Positions 2,589 through 16,801 of a DNA stretch of 16,801 nt are shown one piece after another. The position numbers were made by a program, and so were the translations under genes. Origin of the DNA: a virus (lineage: Duplodnaviria; Heunggongvirae; Uroviricota; Caudoviricetes); the IMG/VR virus record IMGVR_UViG_2531839178_000016. The stretch is one strand, 5' to 3'. Each line of letters begins with the position of its first letter. The first letter of the stretch is position 1. The notes under the pieces were generated by a model. That model was given only the letters and a program-made list of their open reading frames with translations. It did no database searches and was not told the origin of the DNA.

Positions 2589-3190
2589 GACACGGCCTCG
2601 CTGCTATTTTCCGTGGTGGCGTGAATTTTCGCTTCCGCCGTGGCCTTGTTTCTGGCAGCTTTCTTTTTGACAAAATCAAGCGTTTTGACAGCTTCTTCCT
2701 GACTGAGATATTCATGTGATGCAATCGTGCGACGGAATGTTTTGGAACATAAGGGAAGCAGGTCATCCCATGTCTTGTTAATTTCGGTGATTGCCTGAGT
2801 GATCTCATTGATAATCTCATCTGATGCGGGAGTGACGTCACGCTCAGGGATGTGATCAGCATTCAGGATGATACCTTCACCGGCCTGAGTGTTCAGGTAG
2901 TCGATAGCTGTATCCAGGCGATCGCGACGGGGCCAGTATTTGCTGGCGCGCTTAACAATGGCTTTTCTGGCCATTTCATCGGGGAAACTATCCCACGGGC
3001 TACTTCCTCCGTTATTTCCGGCTTTGCTGCACGCCCTGATGACCTCGATTTCCCTGTTGCTCATCTCTTCGGTCAGATAGTCGCCTTCGGATGTTTTTAC
3101 GACACAATAACCGCCAATGCGTGCGCCCCTGTCTACGAATGGGTTGTATTTGTGCGTGGGGGCGCAGTCAATACCGTTGGACTCGTAAAT
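2585..3190 (-). pseudogene. recT: recT/bet-type single-strand annealing protein, C-terminal two-thirds (5-prime end removed by IS600 insertion at 3190/3191)
   Basis: The reading frame is open from the IS600 boundary: IYESNGIDCAPTHKYNPFVDRGARIGGYCVVKTSEGDYLTEEMSNREIEVIRACSKAGNNGGSSPWDSFPDEMARKAIVKRASKYWP..., which parallels E. coli RecT (...VTHVYAVARLKDGGTQFEVMTRKQIELVRSLSKAGNNGPW...MAKKTAIRRLFKYLP). The N-terminal part is at 11944..12291. Confidence 0.8.
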
Positions 3191-3254
3191 TGAGGTAGCC
3201 TGAGTTTAACGGACACTCCTTCCTGAAATAGAATGGCATCAGAAGGAGCTAATA

Positions 3255-3517
3255 ATGAGCAGAAAAACCCAACGTTACTCTAAAGAGTTCAAAGCCGAAG
3301 CTGTCAGAACGGTTCTTGAAAATCAACTTTCGATCAGTGAAGGCGCTTCCCGATTATCCCTTCCTGAAGGCACTTTAGGACAATGGGTTACCGCCGCCAG
3401 AAAAGGACTCGGTACTCCTGGTTCCCGCACGGTGGCTGAACTGGAATCTGAAATTCTGCAACTGCGTAAGGCGTTAAATGAAGCTCGCCTTGAGCGAGAT
3501 ATATTAAAAAAAGCAAC
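3255..3517 (+). pseudogene. IS600 orfA, interrupted by IS30 after ...ERDILKKAT
   Basis: MSRKTQRYSKEFKAEAVRTVLENQLSISEGASRLSLPEGTLGQWV... is the IS600 OrfA sequence. The frame reads into the IS30 terminal repeat at 3518. The remaining orfA codons (AYFAQESLKNTR*) resume after IS30 at 4741. Confidence 0.85.
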
Positions 3518-4738
3518 TGTAGATTCAATTGGTCAACGCAACAGTTATGTGAAAACATGGGGTCGCGGAGGTTTTTTGAATGAGACGAACATTTACAGCA
3601 GAGGAAAAAGCCTCTGTTTTTGAACTATGGAAGAACGGAACAGGCTTCAGTGAAATAGCGAATATCCTGGGTTCAAAACCCGGAACGATCTTCACTATGT
3701 TAAGGGATACTGGCGGCATAAAACCCCATGAGCGTAAGCGGGCTGTAGCTCACCTGACACTGTCTGAGCGCGAGGAGATACGAGCTGGTTTGTCAGCCAA
3801 AATGAGCATTCGTGCGATAGCTACTGCGCTGAATCGCAGTCCTTCGACGATCTCACGTGAAGTTCAGCGTAATCGGGGCAGACGCTATTACAAAGCTGTT
3901 GATGCTAATAACCGAGCCAACAGAATGGCGAAAAGGCCAAAACCGTGCTTACTGGATCAAAATTTACCATTGCGAAAGCTTGTTCTGGAAAAGCTGGAGA
4001 TGAAATGGTCTCCAGAGCAAATATCAGGATGGTTAAGGCGAACAAAACCACGTCAAAAAACGCTGCGAATATCACCTGAGACAATTTATAAAACGCTGTA
4101 CTTTCGTAGCCGTGAAGCGCTACACCACCTGAATATACAGCATCTGCGACGGTCGCATAGCCTTCGCCATGGCAGGCGTCATACCCGCAAAGGCGAAAGA
4201 GGTACGATTAACATAGTGAACGGAACACCAATTCACGAACGTTCCCGAAATATCGATAACAGACGCTCTCTGGGGCATTGGGAGGGCGATTTAGTCTCAG
4301 GTACAAAAAACTCTCATATAGCCACACTTGTAGACCGAAAATCACGTTATACGATCATCCTTAGACTCAGGGGCAAAGATTCTGTCTCAGTAAATCAGGC
4401 TCTTACCGACAAATTCCTGAGTTTACCGTCAGAACTCAGAAAATCACTGACATGGGACAGAGGAATGGAACTGGCCAGACATCTAGAATTTACTGTCAGC
4501 ACCGGCGTTAAAGTTTACTTCTGCGATCCTCAGAGTCCTTGGCAGCGGGGAACAAATGAGAACACAAATGGGCTAATTCGGCAGTACTTTCCTAAAAAGA
4601 CATGTCTTGCCCAATATACTCAACATGAACTAGATCTGGTTGCTGCTCAGCTAAACAACAGACCGAGAAAGACACTGAAGTTCAAAACACCGAAAGAGAT
4701 AATTGAAAGGGGTGTTGCATTGACAGATTGAATCTACA
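3518..4738 (+). mobile_element. IS30 (complete, 1221 bp) nested in IS600; flanked by 2-bp duplication AC
   Basis: Terminal repeats TGTAGATTCAATTGGTCAACGC (3518) and GCATTGACAGATTGAATCTACA (ends 4738). AC is present on both flanks (3516..3517 and 4739..4740). Confidence 0.95.
3580..4731 (+). CDS. insI: IS30 transposase (383 aa)
   Basis: Full-length ORF with N-terminal HTH and C-terminal DDE-type catalytic domain, bounded by IS30 inverted repeats. Identical translation to the copy at 13238..14389. Confidence 0.95.
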   Translation: MRRTFTAEEKASVFELWKNGTGFSEIANILGSKPGTIFTMLRDTGGIKPHERKRAVAHLTLSEREEIRAGLSAKMSIRAIATALNRSPSTISREVQRNRGRRYYKAVDANNRANRMAKRPKPCLLDQNLPLRKLVLEKLEMKWSPEQISGWLRRTKPRQKTLRISPETIYKTLYFRSREALHHLNIQHLRRSHSLRHGRRHTRKGERGTINIVNGTPIHERSRNIDNRRSLGHWEGDLVSGTKNSHIATLVDRKSRYTIILRLRGKDSVSVNQALTDKFLSLPSELRKSLTWDRGMELARHLEFTVSTGVKVYFCDPQSPWQRGTNENTNGLIRQYFPKKTCLAQYTQHELDLVAAQLNNRPRKTLKFKTPKEIIERGVALTD

Positions 4739-4815
4739 ACAGCGTATTTTGCACAGGAGTCGCTGAAAAATACGCGTTAATCGAACAATGGCGACAACAA
4801 TTTCCCATTGAAGCG

Positions 4816-5634
4816 ATGTGTCAGGTATTTGGTGTATCCAGGAGCGGTTATTACAACTGGGTACAGCATGAACCCTCAGACAGAAAACAAAGTGATGAGC
4901 GGCTAAAACTGGAGATTAAGGTGGCACATATCCGCACTCGCGAAACATATGGAACCCGGCGGCTCCAGACGGAGCTGGCAGAGAATGGCATCATCGTTGG
5001 TCGTGACCGACTGGCACGTCTTCGTAAGGAGCTAAGGCTACGCTGTAAGCAGAAACGCAAGTTCAGAGCGACTACGAACCCGAACCACAATCTGCCAGTT
5101 GCGCCAAATCTGCTGAACCAGACGTTCGCTCCTACAGCACCAAATCAGGTCTGGGTGGCGGACCTGACGTATGTTGCCACACAGGAGGGATGGTTGTACC
5201 TCGCTGGCATCAAAGATGTTTATACGTGCGAAATTGTCGGCTACGCCATGGGAGAGCGCATGACAAAAGAGCTGACAGGTAAAGCCCTGTTTATGGCGCT
5301 CAGGAGCCAGCGCCCACCTGCCGGGCTAATCCACCACTCTGATCGAGGTTCACAGTACTGCGCATACGATTACCGGGTCATACAGGAGCAGTTTGGTCTG
5401 AAAACATCAATGTCGCGTAAAGGTAACTGTTACGACAACGCTCCGATGGAAAGCTTCTGGGGAACGCTGAAAAATGAGAGCCTGAGCCACTATCGTTTTA
5501 ATAACCGGGATGAAGCCATCTCAGTAATACGGGAATACATTGAGATTTTCTACAATCGTCAGCGTCGTCACTCTCGTCTGGGGAATATCTCCCCGGCAGC
5601 CTTCAGGGAAAAATATCATCAGATGGCTGCTTAA
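4816..5634 (+). CDS. IS600 transposase OrfB frame (DDE integrase); the OrfAB fusion is prevented by the IS30 insertion
   Basis: 272-aa ORF with IS3-family motifs (WVADLTYV, HSDRGSQYCA, GNCYDNAPMESFW). Matches recalled IS600 OrfB. Confidence 0.85.
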   Translation: MCQVFGVSRSGYYNWVQHEPSDRKQSDERLKLEIKVAHIRTRETYGTRRLQTELAENGIIVGRDRLARLRKELRLRCKQKRKFRATTNPNHNLPVAPNLLNQTFAPTAPNQVWVADLTYVATQEGWLYLAGIKDVYTCEIVGYAMGERMTKELTGKALFMALRSQRPPAGLIHHSDRGSQYCAYDYRVIQEQFGLKTSMSRKGNCYDNAPMESFWGTLKNESLSHYRFNNRDEAISVIREYIEIFYNRQRRHSRLGNISPAAFREKYHQMAA

Positions 5635-7136
5635 AAAAAGAACAAATGGTAGTGTCCGCTATTGCCAGTACACCTCATTGACTTGATGAAATTGTGCACT
5701 TCAACCGAGGTTTGCAGCGGCGCGTTACTGAAGCCTTTAGGCCACACCCCGAACTTCTCTTTGTAGGTATGAGCGCACCATCCGTCACTCAGTGGCTTAC
5801 CTGTCGCGTTGCGGTAATTCTGATAGCCCTTGATCTCACTCCACCACCGCTGTTTTTCCTCACGGCTGTATTCGCGTTTCCCTTTGTTTACGCGAGAGAG
5901 TTTTCGATCGCGGTCTGTTGCCACATCATCGCCACCAAGAGGACGAAACCCACATTTGGGACACATGTGTACACCAGCAGGCTTCATGAAGTGGCATTTG
6001 GGGCATTCTCTGGGAAGTTTTTCAGCTTTAACCTCGCCACCGCCAGCAGACGCTTTCATTCCGTCATTTTTGCCCGGCAGTTCGTCATACTCGATATCCT
6101 CGGGGAAACCCAGCCGATGAACCGTGCCAGAATGGTCGAAAATCAACGCACGTTGTTTACCTGGGGCTGTACGTAACGCTCTACCTATGCACTGCAACCA
6201 ACGGATTTCTGATTTTGTCGGACGGGCATAGATCAGGCAGCGAACATCGCTGTCAAATCCCGCAACCAGTACGCCGACGTTGACAATTATTTTGGTCACG
6301 CCCTCTTCAAAACGGCGAATGATGTCCTGTCGTTCATCATGGAGGGTATCTGCCGTCATCACCTCTGCGCCAATACCGGCCTGTAAAAACTCACGGGTAA
6401 CAAAATTCGCATGCGCAACATTCACACAGAAGCAGATCGTCGGCAAATCCTCACCATTCTCAAGCCAGTTGCGAACGATATCGCCAACCAGATCCGAACT
6501 CCCCATGATGGATGCGAGCTGCTCCTCGTTGTAATCCCGTCCAAATACGGTGTTACTGGTTTTTACGCCAGCCAGATCAGGCATTGAGGGGGCAAAAAAC
6601 TCATAATCGCTCAGATCACCACGCTGAATAAGTTCACGAATCGTTGTAGGCTTGATCAGGCATTCGTAGTACTTCCCCATCCAGGCTGCGAACGGGGTAC
6701 CGGAAAGTCCAAGAACCCTGATGTCTCTGTCCCGGATAACCTCAAGTAACGCACGACGCTTCATGTGTGCTTCATCGATGATCAGCAGATCGATGTTGTT
6801 AGGAAACTCACGACGGATCAGCGTGTCGGCACTGGCAATCTGAATCAGTCGTGACGGGTCATAGTTAGGGTGATCACGCCATACAAAACTGATTTCTTCC
6901 CACGGCAAACCGTATTCGGTGAAACGTTCCGCTGTCTGGTTCAGCAGGATGGTGTACGGACAGACAAACATCACTCGCATACCACGTTCAACCATTCCGG
7001 CGGTGACGAATGCTGCAAGACCAGTTTTGCCAGAGCCAGTGGGTGCATACATCAGGTACGTGCGATGCTGTTTCCACTGGTGCCGCAGCTGGTTTAAACC
7101 GCGCTCCTGAGCAAAGTTTGGGATTATTTTCAGCAT
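5631..7136 (-). CDS. SF2 DEAH-box helicase (ResIII-like core plus C-terminal zinc ribbon); native 3-prime end replaced by IS600 sequence from 5677 downward
   Basis: Motif I APTGSGKT, motif II LLIIDEAH, motif III SGTPF, motif VI QCIGRALR, then CPKCHF...CPKCGF zinc ribbon. The last about 15 codons (MRCTGNSGHYHLFFF) lie in the IS600 right end. Start overlaps the stop of the upstream 128-aa gene (ATGCTGA). Confidence 0.85.
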   Translation of the reverse strand: MLKIIPNFAQERGLNQLRHQWKQHRTYLMYAPTGSGKTGLAAFVTAGMVERGMRVMFVCPYTILLNQTAERFTEYGLPWEEISFVWRDHPNYDPSRLIQIASADTLIRREFPNNIDLLIIDEAHMKRRALLEVIRDRDIRVLGLSGTPFAAWMGKYYECLIKPTTIRELIQRGDLSDYEFFAPSMPDLAGVKTSNTVFGRDYNEEQLASIMGSSDLVGDIVRNWLENGEDLPTICFCVNVAHANFVTREFLQAGIGAEVMTADTLHDERQDIIRRFEEGVTKIIVNVGVLVAGFDSDVRCLIYARPTKSEIRWLQCIGRALRTAPGKQRALIFDHSGTVHRLGFPEDIEYDELPGKNDGMKASAGGGEVKAEKLPRECPKCHFMKPAGVHMCPKCGFRPLGGDDVATDRDRKLSRVNKGKREYSREEKQRWWSEIKGYQNYRNATGKPLSDGWCAHTYKEKFGVWPKGFSNAPLQTSVEVHNFIKSMRCTGNSGHYHLFFF

Positions 7137-8040: not shown

Positions 8041-8280
8041 TCAGGCTGTTTGCCTTACATGAAGCGGAATACCATCTTCCATGTTTAGGTAGTCATGCGG
8101 GTTTAGTTCATGGGGAGTTACATTCCAGTCTGTAGCTTTTGCCCATTCAATGGCTTTCCGCCCCTGAGGCATGTATCTCCCTGTAATAACCCCACTGACA
8201 AATCCCTGAGAAACTCCAACAATCGCCGCAAAATCGGCTTGTCTGATAGAGCTTTGTCTCAAGTACTCGTCAAGAGTCAT
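8041..8280 (-). CDS. cro: Cro-like small HTH regulator (79 aa)
   Basis: Divergent from cI across a 105-bp region. Size and HTH-like segment (QADFAAIVGVSQGFVSGVITGRYMP) fit Cro/YdaS-type proteins. GGGAGG RBS 6 nt before ATG. Confidence 0.65.
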   Translation of the reverse strand: MTLDEYLRQSSIRQADFAAIVGVSQGFVSGVITGRYMPQGRKAIEWAKATDWNVTPHELNPHDYLNMEDGIPLHVRQTA

Positions 8281-8385
8281 AGAGATCCTCCCATTTCAAT
8301 TTTCCGATATTAGCTTACCTGATTTAAATGTCAATAGGCTAGCTATTTGATAAATATTTGTGTTGCTAATAAAATCGGAGGCACT
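8281..8385. promoter_or_regulatory. cI/cro divergent control region (PR- and PRM-like promoters; operator sites not resolved)
   Basis: Minus strand: -35 TTGACA (8329..8334), 16-bp spacer, -10 TAATAT (8307..8312), driving cro. Plus strand: -35 TTGATA (8347..8352), 17-bp spacer, -10 TAAAAT (8370..8375), giving a nearly leaderless cI transcript. Predicted start sites are about 82 bp apart. Confidence 0.6.
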
Positions 8386-9105
8386 ATGACGAAGAAAATT
8401 ACAATTACTGACAAAGACATCCAGAACGCTGAACGACTGCGCAAAATCTGGGATGAAAAACGGAAACAGCTATCCCTAAGCCAGGAAAAAGCCGCAGATA
8501 TCCTCGGCTTCAAAACGCAGGGGGCTGTTAGTCAGTTATTGAACGCAAAAATTGCGTTAAATACTGAAAATACCCTTAAGTTTGCGGCTTTATTACAGGT
8601 TCCTGCGGAAGAAATTAATCCAGATCTGAGTGATTTGTTACGCAGTATTCGTACCCACACACCGGGAAACAGGCGTAACCTGTTCGAGAAATATTACGAA
8701 TATCCGTTACTCTCCTGCGTACAGGCTGGAGCTTTCTCAATGGATGATTTTTCGTACACCGCAAAGGATGCGATTAAGTGGATCTCCACCACCACAAAAG
8801 CCAGTGACAGGTCGTTCTGGCTGGAGGTCAAGGGGCATTCAATGACCGCGCCGCAGGGTGGTAAACCCAGTTTCCCCGAAGGGATGCTGATACTCGTTGA
8901 CCCTGAGCGGGAGATTGAGGATGGCGATTTTTGCGTGGCCCGAATGAATGGCGATGAATTCACCTTCAAACGATTCATTCGTGAGAGCGGTAAAGCGTAC
9001 CTGGAGCCACTCAACCCACGATTCGACATGATTGAGTGTAACGAAAACTGCCAGTTTGTCGGAAAGGTCATAAAGTCGCAGTGGAATGATGAGACTTTTG
9101 ATTGA
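8386..9105 (+). CDS. cI: CI-type prophage repressor (HTH plus LexA-like S24 autopeptidase domain), 239 aa
   Basis: Co-linear with recalled lambda CI: Ala-Gly cleavage site (CVQAGAFS), catalytic Ser (GHSMTAP) and Lys (FTFKRF), [33 protein letters not shown] at 8386 preceded by GGAG. Confidence 0.9.
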
Positions 9106-9226
9106 ACTCACAGGATGATATCAATAACCTTGCAGGGAGGCTATTTTATTTCCTTTTTCAGCGAAAAATCTCCGAGAACCCTCGCCCAATGCGGGCGGGG
9201 AGCAGTCGCAATCAAGTGAGCCATAA

Positions 9227-9400
9227 ATGAACAAAGACAAATCCTTGACACAACAAGTGGAAGAAATACTTAGCAAGCAAAAAGTTAGCGAGCAAGGAAA
9301 AATGATTCAATCATTAAAGAACATGGGCTTGATCAACAAGCCTGTTTTTACTTTGGCTTATGGACCAGATATTACAACCTGCCAAATGCACCAATAACAA
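9227..9400 (+). CDS. candidate small ORF (58 aa) downstream of cI, ending at the terminator
   Basis: ATG-initiated open frame MNKDKSLTQQVEEILSKQKVSEQGKMIQSLKNMGLINKPVFTLAYGPDITTCQMHQ. Weak RBS. Below the length cutoff of the supplied ORF track. Confidence 0.35.
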
Positions 9401-9426
9401 AACCCGGCCTTGGTGCCGGGTTTTGT
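9399..9426. terminator. bidirectional intrinsic terminator between convergent cI and hicB
   Basis: AAAACCCGGCCTTGGTGCCGGGTTTT: 8-bp GC-rich stem, 6-nt loop, A-run upstream and T-run downstream. Confidence 0.7.
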
Positions 9427-9511
9427 TTGCCTCCTGCTCGCCCCACCATTTACCAGTGCGCCGTAAATTCCCCATTCTTCGGCGGTGAGGATGTCAAAGA
9501 CGAAGGGAACA

Positions 9512-9856
9512 TTAAGCCCCTGTGTGATGGTTGACTTCTTTTTCCAGCGCCTTATTAACAAAGGCGTTCAGTGATAAATCTTCTTCCATCGCCATTTCAG
9601 CGACCCGACGATGCAGTTCTGGATCAAGTCTGACGTTAAACACACCTTTAAACGGGGTATCAGGCTCCTTTCCATCCTCCACACAAGACTGTAAATACAG
9701 CTCAACCGATGTCTTAAACTCCTGTTCCAGTTCAGCTAATGTAGAAGCCTCATAAGTTACCAGGTCTCGAATAAACGCCAGTTTTCCGTACAGGATATTA
9801 TTTTCAAAATCTGGTTCTACTGTACCTAAATATCCTTTATATTTTAGATGATTCAT
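9512..9856 (-). CDS. hicB: HicB-family antitoxin (114 aa)
   Basis: N-terminal HicB fold motifs (YKGYLGTVE...FYGK...IRDLVTYEASTLAELEQEF) and C-terminal ribbon-helix-helix-like tail (FNVRLDPELHRRVAEMAMEEDLSLNAFVNKALE). Start overlaps the hicA stop (ATGA). Confidence 0.8.
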   Translation of the reverse strand: MNHLKYKGYLGTVEPDFENNILYGKLAFIRDLVTYEASTLAELEQEFKTSVELYLQSCVEDGKEPDTPFKGVFNVRLDPELHRRVAEMAMEEDLSLNAFVNKALEKEVNHHTGA

Positions 9857-10107
9857 AATACCCCAGCCTCTTTCAGATTCTGTTTAATCGCTTTCAGCGT
9901 TCCACCTTTAATATAACTTTCTGGATGTGGGCGATGCATTAATATGGTGTGGTTGATTTCAGCATTGAAAAACCGCACTCTTGAGCCCTGCATTTCCTTT
10001 TTGACATATCCCAGAGAGGAAAACAAAACGACCAACTCATCCCATTCAAACGTTTTTTTACTGTTTAAAAACTTTTCCAGTAGCTTATCTGCTTTCCCCA
10101 TACCCAC
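9853..10107 (-). CDS. hicA: HicA-family toxin (mRNA interferase), about 82-84 aa; start at GTG 10107 or ATG 10101
   Basis: C-terminal HicA signature (GSRVRFFNAEINHTILMHRPHPESYIKGGTLKAIKQNLKEAGVL). Toxin-first order with 4-bp overlap onto hicB. Confidence 0.8.
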   Translation of the reverse strand: MGMGKADKLLEKFLNSKKTFEWDELVVLFSSLGYVKKEMQGSRVRFFNAEINHTILMHRPHPESYIKGGTLKAIKQNLKEAGVL

Positions 10108-10136
10108 ATAATCTCATCTTCGCTACATTGCAACTA

Positions 10137-10165
10137 ATTATAGTTACAGGCGATGTTTTTGTCAA
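10137..10165 (-). promoter_or_regulatory. consensus sigma70 promoter for hicAB (-35 TTGACA, 17-bp spacer, -10 TATAAT)
   Basis: Minus strand reads TTGACAAAAACATCGCCTGTAACTATAAT about 30 bp upstream of the hicA start. Confidence 0.65.
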
Positions 10166-10256
10166 AAGCCACCAAGCCCGCTGGGTTCTCTTTGACTGTT
10201 CACTGCTTTTCTTAGTGTTATCAGGGGGTTCCCTCACACCAAATCTAACACAGAGT

Positions 10257-10283
10257 AACCGGCCTCAGCGCCGGTTTTTCTTT
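10257..10283 (+). terminator. orphan intrinsic terminator-like hairpin (plus strand)
   Basis: AACCGGC-CTCAGC-GCCGGTT followed by TTTCTTT. No obvious upstream plus-strand gene. Confidence 0.45.
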
Positions 10284-10730
10284 GCGCATCCTCCATAACT
10301 CACCACCTGCATTATCCTCGCTTATATTTTTTACATAAATAAATTAATCTAAAAATCAATCACATAGATTAAAATTAAATTATTAGTCTTACTATTAACT
10401 GCGATCAGTTGCGCTTATTATATTTTACCCAAGCCAGAAACATCGCGCCCTGACACAGGGCTACATAAATCAGTCGTACGGCGCGACTTAACCCGCCGCA
10501 AAATGCTCTTTAACAATCTGGAGCTTTACAGCGTCAATGACCTGTTTAGACCCCTACACGTAAACGTGCTGTATCATCGGGTGCGATCCGGTCGATGAGA
10601 GAGTATCCCCGCGCGAGAGCGAGAACGGCGTGAGAACGGGCAACACTGGCAGGAAGTTGGCGCTGACCAATACAGGGAATGTTTTGGGGTGCAGGCGGCA
10701 CCGCCAAAGCATTTCCGAGAAAGGACGATA

Positions 10731-10759: not shown

Positions 10760-10819
10760 TGGCGAACACCTCATAAAACGGGTGCCGGGATTAGCACCCC
10801 GAAAGTTACTCGAGCGCAT

Positions 10820-10842
10820 AACCGCGCTGAAGCGGTTTTTTT
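10820..10842 (+). terminator. intrinsic terminator inside the rha leader, about 75 nt downstream of the predicted start site
   Basis: AACCGC-GCTGAA-GCGGTT followed by TTTTTTT. Flanked by an outer inverted repeat CGCATA...TATGCG. Confidence 0.6.
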
Positions 10843-11008
10843 ATGCGTAATGCACAGCCACATTCAAATTATGGTGAGGCGTGCGGGGCAGCCGCAAGGC
10901 TGGCCGGGTTCTCGAGTGACCGGTAGTGCTAACCCTGTGCGTCTCACCACCCATGAGATTAGCACCTCTGGTGGTGAGTTAATTAACTTATCACTTGAGG
11001 ATGTCATT

Positions 11009-11647
11009 ATGGCTACTACCCTTTCTCACCCTGACGTAACCATCGAAAATGGTCGCGCCGTCACTACTTCTATTTCGATTGCTGAGTTTTTTGGCAAGCA
11101 GCATCACCATGTTGTTCAGAAAATAGAATCCCTCGAATGCTCTGAGCAATTCTTAACCCGCAACTTTTCGCGGGTTAAATTCGAACACCGAGGCAATACC
11201 TATAACGCCTACCAAATCACCAAAAACGGCTTCGTTTTTCTGGTGATGGGCTTCACCGGCAAAAAAGCAGCTGCATTCAAGGAAGCCTACATTGCTGAAT
11301 TCGATCGCATGGAAAAACAACTATGGGAACAGAAACAACTGGCCCTGTCTTCTCCTGCGATGAATATCAATTTCCCTTTATCGTGGTTTTCAGAGCATCA
11401 CCCCTATGCCACGATGAACTATGTTGATAGAAATACATTGCAGCTTGATACCTCCGTCTTATTCGACATGCCAAGCCCTGCAATGCGCATATTTAATGAA
11501 TTACGTCGTAACGGCTATAACGTCGATGCGGCTGTCGCCGAATTTAACGCCTTCAAGCATCTGACGGAAGAAATGCGCCGTAAATTGCTGGATATTTCCT
11601 GCACATCGGAAAAGTCTTCCCGCTTTGGTTTCAACGTTAATCTTTAA
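11009..11647 (+). CDS. rha: Rha-family phage regulatory protein (212 aa)
   Basis: N-terminal Rha-type region (VTTSISIAEFFGKQHHHVVQKIESLECSEQFLTRNF...YQITKNGFVFLVMGFTGKKAAAFKEAYIAEFDRME). Start ATG at 11009 chosen for GAGG RBS at 8-nt spacing; the longer ORF from 10850 overlaps the structured leader. Confidence 0.75.
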   Translation: MATTLSHPDVTIENGRAVTTSISIAEFFGKQHHHVVQKIESLECSEQFLTRNFSRVKFEHRGNTYNAYQITKNGFVFLVMGFTGKKAAAFKEAYIAEFDRMEKQLWEQKQLALSSPAMNINFPLSWFSEHHPYATMNYVDRNTLQLDTSVLFDMPSPAMRIFNELRRNGYNVDAAVAEFNAFKHLTEEMRRKLLDISCTSEKSSRFGFNVNL

Positions 11648-11717: not shown

Positions 11718-11783
11718 ATGCTCAAACCTCACTACGGAACCGCATTAGTTTCTCGCGAGGACGTTAAACCCCATTGCTTATGA
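11718..11783 (+). CDS. candidate micro-ORF (21 aa) with strong RBS
   Basis: GGAGG 7 nt upstream of ATG. Stop overlaps the start of the next ORF (ATGA). Confidence 0.3.
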   Translation: MLKPHYGTALVSREDVKPHCL

Positions 11784-12291: not shown

Positions 12292-12334
12292 TGAGGTGTA
12301 CTGGCAATAGCGGACACTACCATTTGTTCTTTTT

Positions 12335-13153
12335 TTAAGCAGCCATCTGATGATATTTTTCCCTGAAGGCTGCCGGGGAGATATTCCCCAGACGAGAGTG
12401 ACGACGCTGACGATTGTAGAAAATCTCAATGTATTCCCGTATTACTGAGATGGCTTCATCCCGGTTATTAAAACGATAGTGGCTCAGGCTCTCATTTTTC
12501 AGCGTTCCCCAGAAGCTTTCCATCGGAGCGTTGTCGTAACAGTTACCTTTACGCGACATTGATGTTTTCAGACCAAACTGCTCCTGTATGACCCGGTAAT
12601 CGTATGCGCAGTACTGTGAACCTCGATCAGAGTGGTGGATTAGCCCGGCAGGTGGGCGCTGGCTCCTGAGCGCCATAAACAGGGCTTTACCTGTCAGCTC
12701 TTTTGTCATGCGCTCTCCCATGGCGTAGCCGACAATTTCGCACGTATAAACATCTTTGATGCCAGCGAGGTACAACCATCCCTCCTGTGTGGCAACATAC
12801 GTCAGGTCCGCCACCCAGACCTGATTTGGTGCTGTAGGAGCGAACGTCTGGTTCAGCAGATTTGGCGCAACTGGCAGATTGTGGTTCGGGTTCGTAGTCG
12901 CTCTGAACTTGCGTTTCTGCTTACAGCGTAGCCTTAGCTCCTTACGAAGACGTGCCAGTCGGTCACGACCAACGATGATGCCATTCTCTGCCAGCTCCGT
13001 CTGGAGCCGCCGGGTTCCATATGTTTCGCGAGTGCGGATATGTGCCACCTTAATCTCCAGTTTTAGCCGCTCATCACTTTGTTTTCTGTCTGAGGGTTCA
13101 TGCTGTACCCAGTTGTAATAACCGCTCCTGGATACACCAAATACCTGACACAT
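12335..13153 (-). CDS. IS600 transposase OrfB frame
   Basis: Translation identical to 4816..5634. Confidence 0.85.
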   Translation of the reverse strand: MCQVFGVSRSGYYNWVQHEPSDRKQSDERLKLEIKVAHIRTRETYGTRRLQTELAENGIIVGRDRLARLRKELRLRCKQKRKFRATTNPNHNLPVAPNLLNQTFAPTAPNQVWVADLTYVATQEGWLYLAGIKDVYTCEIVGYAMGERMTKELTGKALFMALRSQRPPAGLIHHSDRGSQYCAYDYRVIQEQFGLKTSMSRKGNCYDNAPMESFWGTLKNESLSHYRFNNRDEAISVIREYIEIFYNRQRRHSRLGNISPAAFREKYHQMAA

Positions 13154-13230
13154 CGCTTCAATGGGAAATTGTTGTCGCCATTGTTCGATTAACGCGTATT
13201 TTTCAGCGACTCCTGTGCAAAATACGCTGT

Positions 13231-14451
13231 TGTAGATTCAATCTGTCAATGCAACACCCCTTTCAATTATCTCTTTCGGTGTTTTGAACTTCAGTGTCTT
13301 TCTCGGTCTGTTGTTTAGCTGAGCAGCAACCAGATCTAGTTCATGTTGAGTATATTGGGCAAGACATGTCTTTTTAGGAAAGTACTGCCGAATTAGCCCA
13401 TTTGTGTTCTCATTTGTTCCCCGCTGCCAAGGACTCTGAGGATCGCAGAAGTAAACTTTAACGCCGGTGCTGACAGTAAATTCTAGATGTCTGGCCAGTT
13501 CCATTCCTCTGTCCCATGTCAGTGATTTTCTGAGTTCTGACGGTAAACTCAGGAATTTGTCGGTAAGAGCCTGATTTACTGAGACAGAATCTTTGCCCCT
13601 GAGTCTAAGGATGATCGTATAACGTGATTTTCGGTCTACAAGTGTGGCTATATGAGAGTTTTTTGTACCTGAGACTAAATCGCCCTCCCAATGCCCCAGA
13701 GAGCGTCTGTTATCGATATTTCGGGAACGTTCGTGAATTGGTGTTCCGTTCACTATGTTAATCGTACCTCTTTCGCCTTTGCGGGTATGACGCCTGCCAT
13801 GGCGAAGGCTATGCGACCGTCGCAGATGCTGTATATTCAGGTGGTGTAGCGCTTCACGGCTACGAAAGTACAGCGTTTTATAAATTGTCTCAGGTGATAT
13901 TCGCAGCGTTTTTTGACGTGGTTTTGTTCGCCTTAACCATCCTGATATTTGCTCTGGAGACCATTTCATCTCCAGCTTTTCCAGAACAAGCTTTCGCAAT
14001 GGTAAATTTTGATCCAGTAAGCACGGTTTCGGCCTTTTCGCCATTCTGTTGGCTCGGTTATTAGCATCAACAGCTTTGTAATAGCGTCTGCCCCGATTAC
14101 GCTGAACTTCACGTGAGATCGTCGAAGGACTGCGATTCAGCGCAGTAGCTATCGCACGAATGCTCATTTTGGCTGACAAACCAGCTCGTATCTCCTCGCG
14201 CTCAGACAGTGTCAGGTGAGCTACAGCCCGCTTACGCTCATGGGGTTTTATGCCGCCAGTATCCCTTAACATAGTGAAGATCGTTCCGGGTTTTGAACCC
14301 AGGATATTCGCTATTTCACTGAAGCCTGTTCCGTTCTTCCATAGTTCAAAAACAGAGGCTTTTTCCTCTGCTGTAAATGTTCGTCTCATTCAAAAAACCT
14401 CCGCGACCCCATGTTTTCACATAACTGTTGCGTTGACCAATTGAATCTACA
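13231..14451 (-). mobile_element. IS30 (complete, 1221 bp) nested in IS600 copy 2
   Basis: Same terminal repeats as 3518..4738. Same right-hand junction sequence (ACAGCGTATT) as copy 1. Confidence 0.95.
13238..14389 (-). CDS. insI: IS30 transposase (383 aa)
   Basis: Translation identical to 3580..4731. Confidence 0.95.
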   Translation of the reverse strand: MRRTFTAEEKASVFELWKNGTGFSEIANILGSKPGTIFTMLRDTGGIKPHERKRAVAHLTLSEREEIRAGLSAKMSIRAIATALNRSPSTISREVQRNRGRRYYKAVDANNRANRMAKRPKPCLLDQNLPLRKLVLEKLEMKWSPEQISGWLRRTKPRQKTLRISPETIYKTLYFRSREALHHLNIQHLRRSHSLRHGRRHTRKGERGTINIVNGTPIHERSRNIDNRRSLGHWEGDLVSGTKNSHIATLVDRKSRYTIILRLRGKDSVSVNQALTDKFLSLPSELRKSLTWDRGMELARHLEFTVSTGVKVYFCDPQSPWQRGTNENTNGLIRQYFPKKTCLAQYTQHELDLVAAQLNNRPRKTLKFKTPKEIIERGVALTD

Positions 14452-14659
14452 GTTGCAGAATTTCAGATTCCAGTTCAGCCACCGTGCGGGAACCAGGAGT
14501 ACCGAGTCCTTTTCTGGCGGCGGTAACCCATTGTCCTAAAGTGCCTTCAGGAAGGGATAATCGGGAAGCGCCTTCACTGATCGAAAGTTGATTTTCAAGA
14601 ACCGTTCTGACAGCTTCGGCTTTGAACTCTTTAGAGTAACGTTGGGTTTTTCTGCTCAT
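14452..14659 (-). pseudogene. IS600 orfA fragment, shortened by a 55-bp deletion next to the IS30 IRL
   Basis: OrfA reads MSRKTQ...ELESEILQL and then meets IS30. Copy 1 has a further 18 codons (RKALNEARLERDILKKAT) before IS30. Confidence 0.8.
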
Positions 14660-14859
14660 TATTAGCTCCTTCTGATGCCATTCTATTTCAGGAAGGAGTG
14701 TCCGTTAAACTCAGGCTACCTCAAAGGACCGAACAAACGAAACAGCAATGAGACCGTTGCGAAAAGCGACAATAGACAAATTCCCTGAATATATCGACCC
14801 GCGCCTGCGTAATTACCGCTCACGCTATGGCGCTATCAGTAATGACTGAGGAATTTACC

Positions 14860-15804: not shown

Positions 15805-16687
<883 letters not shown>

Positions 16688-16691
<4 letters not shown>

Positions 16692-16801
16692 TTTTTCCAG
16701 AGGCGGTCGAACTCCGCCTTCGCAAAATAAGCGGAAGCCTGGCGAAGGATATCGTTACTGCGGCGCAGTTCACGATTTTCACGCTCCAGCTCTTTCAGAC
16801 G
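16688..16801 (-). CDS. IS629 orfA C-terminal part (partial at window edge)
   Basis: Minus-strand translation ...[37 protein letters not shown] with the A-run frameshift motif (GGAAAAAATGATG) at the orfA/orfB overlap. Confidence 0.8.

What the first reader, a model, noticed from the sequence alone, without database searches (positions are those of the whole stretch)
9400..10170. hicAB toxin-antitoxin module in the immunity region, in the rexAB-equivalent position next to cI
A toxin-first hicA-hicB pair with 4-bp overlap and its own perfect consensus sigma70 promoter lies convergent to cI and shares a bidirectional terminator with it. It is markedly more AT-rich than the flanking phage DNA, as expected for a moron. 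This slot in lambdoid phages typically holds lysogen-expressed exclusion or abortive-infection functions (rexAB in lambda), so this hicAB is a candidate prophage-encoded anti-phage or stabilisation module.
Basis: partly seen in the sequence, partly recalled or inferred. Interest (0 to 1): 0.55.

Follow-up and report, generated by a model that had tools for sequence, protein, structure and literature searches.

The report
HicAB toxin-antitoxin cassette beside prophage repressor
This is an ordinary, already annotated HicA/HicB toxin-antitoxin gene pair inserted as a self-contained cassette next to the repressor gene of a decayed Shiga-toxin-type prophage; it is nearly identical to a pair tested on IncX4 resistance plasmids, and its benefit to the prophage is unproven.

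Summary
hicA (9853..10101, minus strand) and hicB (9512..9856, minus strand) overlap by 4 bp. They pass Pfam thresholds and their models match solved HicA and HicB structures. They are driven by the only perfect TTGACA-17-TATAAT in the window. One correction: a 56-aa ORF (9227..9397) lies between cI and the shared bidirectional hairpin (9396..9427).

The pair is not new. The exact proteins are in NCBI as HicA/HicB of E. coli and Shigella. HicA is 96% and HicB 95% identical to the IncX4-plasmid "overlapping" HicAB subfamily, whose toxin and antidote activities are published. The architecture matches the founding Haemophilus influenzae hic locus. Lambda-immunity phages mEp234 and HK106 already carry hicAB in place of rexAB.

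What I add:
- The cassette (about 9496..10167) is bracketed by two diverged copies of the immunity-operon terminator.
- A palindrome over the -10 is a likely HicB operator.
- Both genes are under strong purifying selection (dN/dS about 0.05).
- This HicA clade has an invariant Arg where studied HicA RNases have their catalytic His.
- The host prophage is IS-disrupted and rearranged.

An anti-phage or stabilising role remains untested, and published precedents for HicAB are negative.

Verdict: already known, low interest.

The parts
9853..10101 (-). hicA, toxin gene (82 aa from ATG 10101; an in-frame GTG at 10107 would add 2 codons)
   Evidence: PF07927 at 45 bits against a cut-off of 27. AF2 model pLDDT 90; best PDB matches are HicA structures 1whz and 6g26_E/F at prob 1.00. 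79/82 identical to IncX4 HicA and 59% to H. influenzae HicA. The exact sequence is on at least 1000 contigs named HicA.
9512..9856 (-). hicB, antitoxin gene (114 aa), start overlapping the hicA stop by 4 bp
   Evidence: PF05534 at 71 bits against a cut-off of 21. AF2 model pLDDT 85; best PDB matches are B. pseudomallei HicB 6g26_A/B and TTHA0281. The C-terminal region matches Arc-like and CopG ribbon-helix-helix proteins. 109/115 identical to IncX4 HicB and 61% to H. influenzae HicB.
10137..10165 (-). PhicA: -35 TTGACA (10160-10165), 17-bp spacer, -10 TATAAT (10137-10142)
   Evidence: 12 of 12 matches. Unique in the window, with 0 of 200 shuffles matching. Both hexamers are invariant between the prophage and IncX4 copies, while the spacer varies.
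10129..10148 (.). Candidate HicB operator: palindrome TGCAACT-AATTAT-AGTTACA overlapping the -10 hexamer and the predicted transcription start
   Evidence: Found. Unique in the window even with 2 mismatches allowed, with 0 of 200 shuffles matching. Invariant in all five aligned copies, including the IncX4 plasmid. The same half-site, TGCAACT...AGTTGCA, sits at the same distance upstream of the 35%-identical hicA of phage mEp234. HicB binding itself is inferred.
9504..9521 (-). Small hairpin at the hicB stop codon; marks the end of the segment shared with plasmids
   Evidence: Terminator-like hit. Homology with IncX4 plasmids ends at 9496-9503. The IncX4 copy has a better hairpin plus T-tract at this point.
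9396..9427 (.). T1, bidirectional intrinsic terminator shared by ORF56 (and probably the cI transcript) and hicAB
   Evidence: 13-bp stem at -23.2 and -24.5 kcal/mol, z -4.0 and -4.5, with U-tracts on both strands.
10257..10285 (+). T2, a second + strand terminator upstream of PhicA; a diverged copy of T1
   Evidence: Terminator hit and fold. 22/27 identical to T1, above all 500 shuffles. Both T1 and T2 align to the single terminator that follows ORF56 in hicAB-less prophages L029-L031.
9227..9397 (+). 56-aa ORF of unknown function between cI and T1; not part of the toxin-antitoxin pair
   Evidence: phrog_28875 at E 1e-30. The exact sequence is on at least 1000 contigs. It also occurs without hicAB, directly after an SDH-family protease gene.
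8386..9105 (+). cI-type repressor (HTH plus S24 peptidase), neighbour of the cassette
   Evidence: Peptidase_S24 at E 1.8e-28 and HTH_3. Annotated as a LexA family protein in relatives.

Best explanation
**What it is.** A functional, self-regulated type II HicAB toxin-antitoxin cassette. It belongs to the overlapping-ORF subfamily known from IncX4 plasmids and to the type of the founding H. influenzae hic locus. It was inserted as a moron at the terminator of the immunity operon of an Eru1-type lambdoid (Stx-phage-like) prophage.

**Proposed mechanism.**
1. One strong sigma-70 promoter transcribes hicA then hicB leftward, towards cI.
2. The ATGA overlap couples translation of HicB to that of HicA.
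3. HicB binds HicA through its N-terminal partial RNase-H-like domain.
4. Through its C-terminal ribbon-helix-helix domain, HicB binds the palindrome over the -10 and represses the promoter. Expression in the lysogen is therefore low and balanced.
5. If HicB supply stops, free HicA arrests growth. This could follow loss of the DNA segment or a general shut-off of host gene expression. By family precedent the arrest would come from mRNA cleavage.
6. T1 stops hicAB transcripts from running antisense into ORF56 and cI.

**Shown here:** gene identity, folds, promoter, palindrome, terminators, insertion scars, purifying selection.

**Taken from papers:** toxicity and neutralisation, tested on the IncX4 subfamily pair.

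**Inferred:** operator binding, RNase chemistry, trigger, benefit.

**Biological role, my estimates:** selfish retention or competition of its carrier element about 0.4; abortive-infection defence about 0.2-0.25; no measurable benefit (hitch-hiker) about 0.35.
For: - Family and fold.
- Near-identity to the IncX4 pair: 96% and 95% amino-acid identity, about 90.7% nucleotide identity over 9503-10167. The plasmids are typed IncX4. 792 plasmid records match, none at 95% or more.
- Published toxicity of HicA and full neutralisation by HicB for the IncX4 plasmid p14EC007a. The subfamily is defined by overlapping ORFs and no internal terminator (PMC11878559).
- Purifying selection between prophage and plasmid alleles: dN/dS 0.06 for hicA and 0.045 for hicB, at dS about 0.25.
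- Promoter and palindrome conservation.
- Same 82-aa plus 114-aa, 4-bp-overlap layout in H. influenzae.
- Moron evidence: absent at this site in L029-31, where a single terminator stands in its place; T1 and T2 are duplicates of that terminator; low GC.
- Both ORFs and cI are intact although the surrounding prophage is broken.
Against: - No expression, toxicity or binding data exist for this allele.
- The residue that studied HicA RNases need for activity is an invariant Arg (R41) here (B. pseudomallei H24, E. coli H23, Y. pestis H28). RNA cleavage therefore cannot simply be carried over from those enzymes.
- The prophage allele has a weaker Shine-Dalgarno sequence and an out-of-frame ATG just upstream of hicA compared with the IncX4 allele. 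HicA output may be very low.
- Role-related precedents are negative or weak: only slight plasmid-competition benefit for the IncX4 pair, a maintenance role discarded for pJIE143, and no stability or defence effect for P. putida prophage HicAB2 (PMC11878559, PMC11594946, PMC12894663).
- No PADLOC defence model matches.
Confidence: 0.85

Rival explanations
1. Lysogen-expressed abortive-infection defence. An infecting phage shuts off host transcription or translation or otherwise frees HicA. HicA then halts translation and aborts the infection. This would be functionally analogous to RexAB in the same slot.
For: - The slot between cI and the leftward early promoter holds variable cargo in relatives, including another toxin-antitoxin-type pair with a Panacea domain inserted right next to PhicA in L003.
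- There is general precedent that toxin-antitoxin modules can defend against phages, and a bioinformatic proposal for HicA specifically (PMC10865869).
- A strong constitutive-type promoter is independent of phage regulation.
Against: - No HicAB has been shown to defend. The IncI2 HicAB, P. putida prophage HicAB2 and the Adephagia pair all tested negative on phage panels (PMC11878559, PMC12894663, PMC11594946).
- No PADLOC match.
- The same cassette is far more common on conjugative plasmids (568 plasmid against 41 chromosomal places in E. coli; 780 of 792 plasmid records conjugative). That fits a mobile-element-centred role at least as well.
Confidence: 0.2
2. Inactive relic. The pair is carried passively in a decaying prophage and no longer works.
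For: - The prophage is defective. The helicase 3' end is cut by an IS, recT is split and its halves lie on opposite strands, and 598 bp of the kil/gam region are missing.
- The hicA ribosome-binding site looks weak.
Against: - Both ORFs are full length and identical to copies in intact relatives on hundreds to thousands of contigs.
- dN/dS is about 0.05.
- The promoter and palindrome are intact.
Confidence: 0.05
3. Regulatory coupling with the lysis-lysogeny switch. Convergent transcription from the strong PhicA towards ORF56 and cI modulates repressor level or induction. Alternatively, read-through of the repressor transcript across T1 acts as antisense to hicBA.
For: - The geometry fits. PhicA fires towards cI, and a second + strand terminator (T2) lies beyond hicA, as if read-through past T1 occurs.
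Against: - T1 is a strong bidirectional hairpin.
- T2 is more simply explained as a duplicated insertion scar.
- The same cassette works on plasmids with no cI nearby.
- mEp234 has hicAB co-directional with cI.
Confidence: 0.05

Closest known systems
HicAB of IncX4 plasmids (pJIE143, p14EC007a; the 'overlapping ORF' subfamily of Lin et al. 2025, PMC11878559)
   Same: 96% (HicA) and 95% (HicB) amino-acid identity. Same 4-bp overlap, same -35 and -10 hexamers and same palindrome, and no internal terminator. Toxin and antidote activities are published for this subfamily.
   Different: About 9% nucleotide divergence, almost all synonymous. No plasmid copy reaches 95% identity. The carrier is a prophage immunity region, not a plasmid. 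The flanks differ, including the terminator used. The leader before hicA has 7 extra nucleotides and a weaker Shine-Dalgarno sequence.
Founding hicAB locus of Haemophilus influenzae
   Same: 82-aa HicA plus 114-aa HicB with a 4-bp overlap, and the GSRVRF and H-K/R-P-H-P motifs. 59% (HicA) and 61% (HicB) identity.
   Different: Chromosomal, beside the pilus gene cluster according to PMC11594946, and not in a phage. The promoter region is only partly similar.
hicAB of lambda-immunity phages mEp234, HK106 and mEp506 (GenBank EF120460, EF120461)
   Same: hicA-hicB lies between cI and the immunity terminator and OL, which is the rexAB position. The HicA clade is the same, with no His after the GS motif and an HEPHP motif. 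The operator half-site TGCAACT is the same.
   Different: Only 35% HicA identity. The pair is co-directional with cI, inside the immunity operon, and followed by a third ORF. Here the pair is convergent with cI and bracketed by duplicated terminators.
Lambda rexAB
   Same: Same map interval, between cI and the leftward operator and promoter. Presumably expressed in the lysogen.
   Different: No sequence or fold relation. Not co-transcribed with cI. RexAB is a sensor plus membrane ion channel, whereas this is an RNase-type toxin plus a DNA-binding antidote.
Burkholderia pseudomallei HicAB (PDB 6g26, 4c26), the ribbon-helix-helix class
   Same: Best structural matches for both proteins. The antitoxin has the same two-domain plan.
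   Different: About 20% identity. B. pseudomallei HicA needs His24, which aligns with Arg41 here. This HicA has an extra N-terminal helix.
Pseudomonas putida prophage P1 HicAB2 (PMC12894663)
   Same: A prophage-borne HicAB that is a working toxin-antitoxin pair.
   Different: A different host and lineage. It was tested and found not to affect prophage stability or phage defence.

Membership tests
HicA toxin family (PF07927 / COG1724) | Profile match above the curated threshold | tested here: met
   45 bits against a cut-off of 27, E 1.2e-11, covering residues 22-83 and the whole 58-position profile.
HicA toxin family (PF07927 / COG1724) | Double-stranded-RNA-binding-domain-like fold (helix, three strands, helix) | tested here: met
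   AF2 pLDDT 90. Core elements are H20-29, E32-36, E41-46, E51-56 and H66-79. Foldseek's best matches are 1whz and 6g26_E/F at prob 1.00, with target-normalised TM 0.64-0.72.
HicA toxin family (PF07927 / COG1724) | hicA immediately upstream of hicB in one operon | tested here: met
   4-bp overlap. The founding H. influenzae locus has the same layout.
HicA toxin family (PF07927 / COG1724) | Catalytic His after the Gly-Ser motif (B. pseudomallei H24, E. coli H23, Y. pestis H28). This is a feature of the experimentally studied members, not of the founder. | tested here: not met
   Arg41 occupies this position. It is invariant in close relatives and present in 129 of 146 distant representatives, with His in only 1. 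It aligns with residue 24 of B. pseudomallei HicA. E. coli HicA reads GSNH. H. influenzae HicA also reads GSR. Family membership therefore stands, but the catalytic mechanism cannot be copied across.
HicA toxin family (PF07927 / COG1724) | Growth inhibition when expressed alone, reversed by HicB; RNA cleavage | not testable with these tools
   Toxicity and rescue are reported for the IncX4 plasmid p14EC007a pair (PMC11878559). I did not confirm that its sequence equals the IncX4 copy I compared. RNase activity has not been shown for this clade in any paper I read.
HicB antitoxin, ribbon-helix-helix class (PF05534; Class 4 of Gerdes 2024) | Profile match above the curated threshold | tested here: met
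   71 bits against a cut-off of 21, E 7.4e-20. phrog_9151 'HicB-like antitoxin' at E 1.5e-50.
HicB antitoxin, ribbon-helix-helix class (PF05534; Class 4 of Gerdes 2024) | N-terminal partial RNase-H-like domain | tested here: met
   The model has strands at 4-37 and then helix 40-60. Best PDB matches are B. pseudomallei HicB (6g26_A/B, 6g1n, 6g1c) and TTHA0281 (2dsy) at prob 0.87-1.00.
HicB antitoxin, ribbon-helix-helix class (PF05534; Class 4 of Gerdes 2024) | C-terminal ribbon-helix-helix DNA-binding domain | tested here: met
   Residues 72-112 match Arc-like repressor PHROGs (E 1e-4) and a CopG-family PDB chain (E 0.05). The conserved FNVR segment is followed by helices 79-91 and 96-112. The evidence is moderate. 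The ribbon strand forms only in a dimer and is not seen in the monomer model.
HicB antitoxin, ribbon-helix-helix class (PF05534; Class 4 of Gerdes 2024) | Palindromic operator in its own promoter | tested here: inconclusive
   A palindrome at 10129-10148 overlaps the -10. It is unique in the window, invariant across alleles, and its half-site is shared with mEp234. Binding is not testable here.
Overlapping-ORF HicAB subfamily of IncX4 plasmids (Lin et al. 2025) | Overlapping toxin and antitoxin ORFs, no internal terminator, high similarity to the pJIE143-type pair | tested here: met
   4-bp overlap. No terminator-like site between the genes. 96% and 95% identity to the pair on typed IncX4 plasmids.
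Lambda RexAB-type exclusion system | Located between cI and the immunity terminator or leftward operator | tested here: met
   The gene order is cro(-), cI(+), ORF56, T1, hicBA, T2, AT-rich region, then the early-left genes (Rha, recT). I could not define the operators themselves.
Lambda RexAB-type exclusion system | Co-transcribed with cI; RexA/RexB homology | tested here: not met
   Opposite strand with its own promoter. Only HicA and HicB families match, and there is no PADLOC hit.
Moron (independent transcription unit inserted between phage genes) | Own promoter and terminator, absent from the same site in related phages, deviant base composition | tested here: met
   Promoter. Hairpins on both sides. 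The site is empty in L029-31, where a single terminator stands in its place. GC is 40% against 48%.

The most novel reading that the evidence does not exclude
The HicA clade that includes this protein, the IncX4 pair, phage mEp234 HicA and the founding H. influenzae HicA has replaced the catalytic His of all biochemically studied HicA RNases with an invariant Arg (R41). It has also gained an invariant His (H56) that should lie across from R41 on the neighbouring strand of the same hairpin. This clade may therefore use a re-built active site, possibly with a different RNA target or even a non-nucleolytic mode of toxicity. Placed beside cI under a strong autoregulated promoter, it could serve the prophage as a lysogen-expressed abortive-infection or addiction device. 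That would explain why it stays intact while the prophage around it decays.
Probability: 0.15. Interest if true: 0.45.

Novelty: already known. Interest (0 to 1): 0.17.

Why it matters
It matters little beyond housekeeping. It shows that one 670-bp HicAB cassette circulates between conjugative resistance plasmids (IncX4, some IncI2) and the immunity regions of Stx-type prophages of E. coli and Shigella, staying under strong purifying selection. It also gives a clean example of a moron inserted at an immunity-operon terminator.

Two points could interest toxin-antitoxin specialists:
- The founder-type HicA clade lacks the His on which current mechanistic descriptions rest.
- The likely HicB operator half-site (TGCAACT) is conserved across 35%-identical systems.

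If a phage-exclusion or prophage-retention phenotype were found, it would be the first demonstrated biological role for a HicAB pair.

Tried and rejected
- **Sequence search against solved structures.** HicA alone found nothing. A profile gave only a marginal HicA hit at E 0.3. Fold comparison was needed.
- **NCBIfam** has no model for this HicA.
- **PADLOC** gave no hit for HicA, HicB, ORF56, cI or Rha.
- **Repressor operators.** I looked for operators shared between the cro-cI intergenic region and the region right of hicA, to pin down OL and PL. No convincing shared 14-mers appeared. The 'between cI and PL' statement therefore rests on gene order and on relatives.
- **pJIE143 (JN194214)** is not in the plasmid collection. 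Identity to the tested plasmids is therefore inferred from typed IncX4 plasmids that carry the same RefSeq proteins.
- **H. influenzae HicB by exact look-up** was not on record. I reached the locus through a genome scan instead.
- **Profile comparison with E. coli K-12 HicA** aligned only the C-terminal half.
- **First cluster look-up** for HicA and HicB failed because I trimmed the wrong end of the minus-strand genes. The repeat was correct.
- **Degnan et al. 2007** (PubMed id recalled from memory, not verified), which I believe describes the mEp234 and HK106 immunity regions, is not held. I rely on the GenBank annotation.
- **ORF56 as a third component of the system** was considered and rejected. 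It occurs without hicAB, and hicAB occurs without it.
Full report
**What is there.** On the minus strand, an 82-aa ORF (9853..10101 from ATG; an in-frame GTG lies at 10107) is followed by a 114-aa ORF (9512..9856). The start of the second overlaps the stop of the first by 4 bp. The first passes Pfam's HicA_toxin threshold (45 bits against 27). The second passes Pfam's HicB threshold (71 bits against 21). Both match phage protein families labelled toxin and HicB-like antitoxin.

AlphaFold models are confident (pLDDT 90 and 85). Their best matches among solved structures are HicA proteins (1whz; 6g26 chains E/F) and HicB proteins (6g26 chains A/B; 2dsy), at Foldseek probability 1.00. The C-terminal 40 residues of HicB resemble Arc/CopG ribbon-helix-helix repressors.

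Upstream sits TTGACA-17-TATAAT (10165..10137). It is the only perfect consensus promoter in the window and was never seen in 200 shuffles.

A 13-bp hairpin at 9396-9427, with U-tracts in both directions, folds at about -23 to -24.5 kcal/mol on either strand. The cassette is 40.0% GC against 48.3% for the window, which puts it in the lowest 1% of equal-sized windows.

Three corrections apply. A 56-aa ORF (9227..9397, phrog_28875) lies between cI (8386..9105) and the hairpin. The hairpin is about 85 nt past the hicB stop, where a weaker hairpin also sits. The hicA start is probably ATG 10101, as RefSeq annotates it.

**How known it is.** The exact HicA sequence is on at least 1000 contigs and the exact HicB on 163. 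NCBI names them HicA/HicB family toxin/antitoxin of E. coli, Shigella boydii and S. dysenteriae.

In complete E. coli genomes, eight chromosomes carry the whole 9100-10350 stretch at 97-99% identity, in prophages. Hundreds of 30-kb plasmids carry the segment 9496-10167 at about 90.7%. Those plasmids are IncX4, and a few IncI2 plasmids carry it too. In the plasmid collection 792 records match, 780 of them conjugative, and none reaches 95% identity.

At the protein level the prophage and IncX4 copies are 79/82 and 109/115 identical. The nucleotide differences are almost all synonymous, with dN/dS 0.06 and 0.045 at dS about 0.25. Both genes are therefore under strong purifying selection in both kinds of carrier.

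Lin et al. 2025 (PMC11878559) define this as the overlapping-ORF HicAB subfamily, which is predominant on IncX4 plasmids. For the plasmid p14EC007a they show that HicA is toxic and HicB fully neutralises it. They also report that the pair gives only a slight advantage in plasmid competition. [quoted passage not shown]

The architecture is also that of the founding hic locus. H. influenzae encodes an 82-aa HicA and a 114-aa HicB with the same 4-bp overlap, 59% and 61% identical to the window's proteins.

**The slot.** cro (8041..8280) is on the minus strand and cI on the plus strand. The early-left genes (Rha-type regulator 10850..11647, then recT) follow on the plus strand. hicAB therefore lies between cI and the start of the leftward early operon, which is the interval rexAB occupies in lambda.

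In relatives this interval varies:
- ORF56 plus hicAB (strain 48).
- A small membrane protein, an SDH-family protease, ORF56 and hicAB.
- A membrane protein, hicAB and a Panacea-domain pair inserted just upstream of PhicA.
- SDH protease plus ORF56 with no hicAB.

In that last group, ORF56 is followed by a single terminator. That terminator aligns with both the hairpin left of hicB (T1) and a second plus-strand terminator right of the hicA promoter (T2, 10257-10285). T1 and T2 are 22/27 identical, above all 500 shuffles. The simplest reading is that a roughly 0.8-kb insert carrying the cassette landed at the immunity-operon terminator, which is now duplicated on both sides. Together with its own promoter, its terminators and its lower GC, this meets the usual definition of a moron.

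The wiring differs from rexAB. The pair is on the opposite strand from cI, has its own promoter and has no relation to RexA or RexB.

The idea itself has prior art. The deposited immunity regions of the lambda-immunity phages mEp234 and HK106 annotate hicA-hicB plus one more ORF between cI and Timm, where lambda has rexAB. There the pair is co-directional with cI and only 35% identical.

**Regulation.** A palindrome, TGCAACT-AATTAT-AGTTACA (10129-10148), overlaps the -10 hexamer and the predicted start point. It is unique in the window even with two mismatches allowed. It is invariant in all prophage and plasmid copies, while the promoter spacer and the flanks vary. Phage mEp234 has TGCAACT-AGATTTC-AGTTGCA at the same distance upstream of its distantly related hicA. 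H. influenzae has GTAACTATA at its -10.

By analogy with studied HicB proteins, which repress their own promoters through palindromic operators (PMC10865869), this is very likely the HicB operator. Binding is inferred, not shown.

The prophage allele differs from the IncX4 allele just before hicA. It has seven extra nucleotides that create an out-of-frame ATG at 10109 and leave a weaker Shine-Dalgarno sequence. hicB has a better Shine-Dalgarno sequence. This would favour the antidote over the toxin.

**An unexpected detail.** In every biochemically studied HicA, a His right after a Gly-Ser motif is required for toxicity or RNase activity. The known cases are B. pseudomallei H24, Y. pestis H28, S. 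pneumoniae H36 and E. coli H23 (PMC11594946).

Here that position is Arg41. It is invariant among close relatives and aligns with residue 24 of the B. pseudomallei protein. E. coli HicA reads GSNH.

A profile search of 1.84 billion representative proteins found 1526 relatives at E up to 0.001. Of the 146 best that could be aligned, 129 have Arg and only one has His at this position. His56 and His59, in an H-R/K-P-H-P motif, are nearly invariant (140 and 142 of 146). H. influenzae HicA (GSRVRF...HKPHP) and mEp234 HicA (GSGRK...HEPHP) share this pattern.

In the model, residues 41-46 and 51-56 are adjacent strands of a hairpin. Residues 41 and 56 should therefore face each other. That is an inference, because I could not read the coordinates.

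The founder-type clade therefore seems to have a differently built active site. None of the papers I read comments on this. It does not affect family membership, since the founder itself has the pattern. It does mean that the 'mRNA interferase' label is an extrapolation for this clade.

**Surroundings.** The prophage is of the Eru1 type, with a DEAD-box helicase next to cro, and it is defective here.

Two perfect 2165-nt inverted repeats (3513-5677 and 12292-14456), plus 275-nt arms, flank the 6.6-kb immunity segment. Each is an IS3-family element with an IS30 inside it. One copy cuts off the helicase 3' end. The other splits recT. The recT N-terminal part ends at 12292 on the plus strand and its C-terminal part starts at 3190 on the minus strand, so the segment has been inverted relative to the recT-exo flank on its left.

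About 598 bp are missing at 11771 compared with all relatives. In strain 48 that stretch holds a cell-division-inhibitor gene, a hypothetical gene and the start of gamL. The IS load and the Shigella-only exact HicB suggest a Shigella genome. cI, ORF56, hicA and hicB remain intact and identical to copies in intact relatives.

Right of the cassette, Rfam finds an isrK-like RNA (10766-10842) and a C4-type antisense RNA (10867-10954), in front of and overlapping the Rha-type ORF. This is a known kind of antirepressor control region.

**What it most likely does.** I am confident (about 0.85) that this is a working, self-repressed HicAB toxin-antitoxin cassette. Its benefit is open.
- Retention or competition of its carrier element is my first choice, at about 0.4. 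It fits the spread on conjugative plasmids and the survival of the intact cassette in a decaying prophage. The measured effects for the plasmid pair are small, however.
- Abortive-infection defence (about 0.2-0.25) fits the slot and its neighbours. It has no experimental precedent for any HicAB, and published tests on three other pairs were negative (PMC11878559, PMC12894663, PMC11594946).
- A neutral hitch-hiker (about 0.35) cannot be excluded.

**Verdict.** The finding is real and correctly named, but it is already known. The proteins are annotated, the subfamily has been tested, and the rex-slot placement of hicAB has been recorded for other lambdoid phages. Interest is low.

Noticed in passing
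window 9227-9397 (+): A 56-aa ORF (phrog_28875, function unknown; weak, sub-threshold resemblance to the ArgR N-terminal domain) lies between cI and the shared terminator. It is not part of the toxin-antitoxin pair. In other prophages it directly follows an SDH-family Clp-fold protease gene and occurs without hicAB.
   Followed up: partly
window 9396-9430 and 10257-10285; L029 about 2683-2709: The two terminators on either side of hicAB are diverged copies (22/27) of the single terminator found after ORF56 in hicAB-less prophages. This looks like an insertion scar at the immunity-operon terminator.
   Followed up: yes
window 9853-10101 (HicA residues 39-43 and 56-60): This HicA clade, which includes the founding H. 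influenzae HicA and phage mEp234 HicA, has an invariant Arg where studied HicA RNases have their essential His. It also carries a near-invariant H-R/K-P-H-P motif. Among 146 distant representatives, 129 have Arg and 1 has His.
   Followed up: partly
window 10766-10842 (+) and 10867-10954 (+): Rfam matches above the gathering score to the isrK Hfq-binding RNA (61.6 bits) and the C4 antisense RNA (78.6 bits). They lie just upstream of and overlapping the 5' part of the Rha/Ash-type ORF 10850-11647, forming an immI-like antirepressor control region. The first roughly 55 codons of that ORF may therefore be RNA gene rather than coding sequence.
   Followed up: no
window 3190-5677 and 12292-14724: Two identical composite insertion elements, each an IS3-family element with an IS30 inside (2165-nt perfect inverted repeat plus 275-nt arms), flank the 6.6-kb immunity segment. 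recT is split, with its halves at 12292 (+) and 3190 (-), so the segment has been inverted. The helicase 3' end is cut off at 5678.
   Followed up: partly
window 11771: About 598 bp present in all relatives are missing here. In E. coli strain 48 they cover a cell-division-inhibitor (Kil-like) gene, a hypothetical gene and the start of gamL.
   Followed up: partly
window 10101-10130 (-): Compared with the IncX4 allele, the prophage allele has 7 extra nucleotides before the hicA start. These create an out-of-frame ATG at 10109 (a 14-codon ORF) and leave a weaker Shine-Dalgarno sequence.
   Followed up: no
window 9155-9202: A 48-bp stretch between cI and ORF56 is 96% identical to a site in the P1-like phage RCS47. 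It can form a modest hairpin (z -1.8). Its meaning is unknown.
   Followed up: no
L003 5872-6722 (E. coli JNEC-KY204), equivalent to window about 10196-10211: In one relative, a Panacea-domain protein gene and a second ORF are inserted immediately upstream of the hicA promoter. Two toxin-antitoxin-type pairs therefore sit side by side in the same slot.
   Followed up: no
window 16617-16733 (-): An ALIL pseudoknot (Rfam, 120 bits), the frameshift signal of an IS3-family element. This is another insertion sequence at the right end of the window.
   Followed up: no
window 8347-8375 (+): A promoter-like site (TTGATA-17-TAAAAT) ends 11 nt before the cI ATG, inside its Shine-Dalgarno region. It would give a nearly leaderless cI transcript, as PRM does in lambda.
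   Followed up: no
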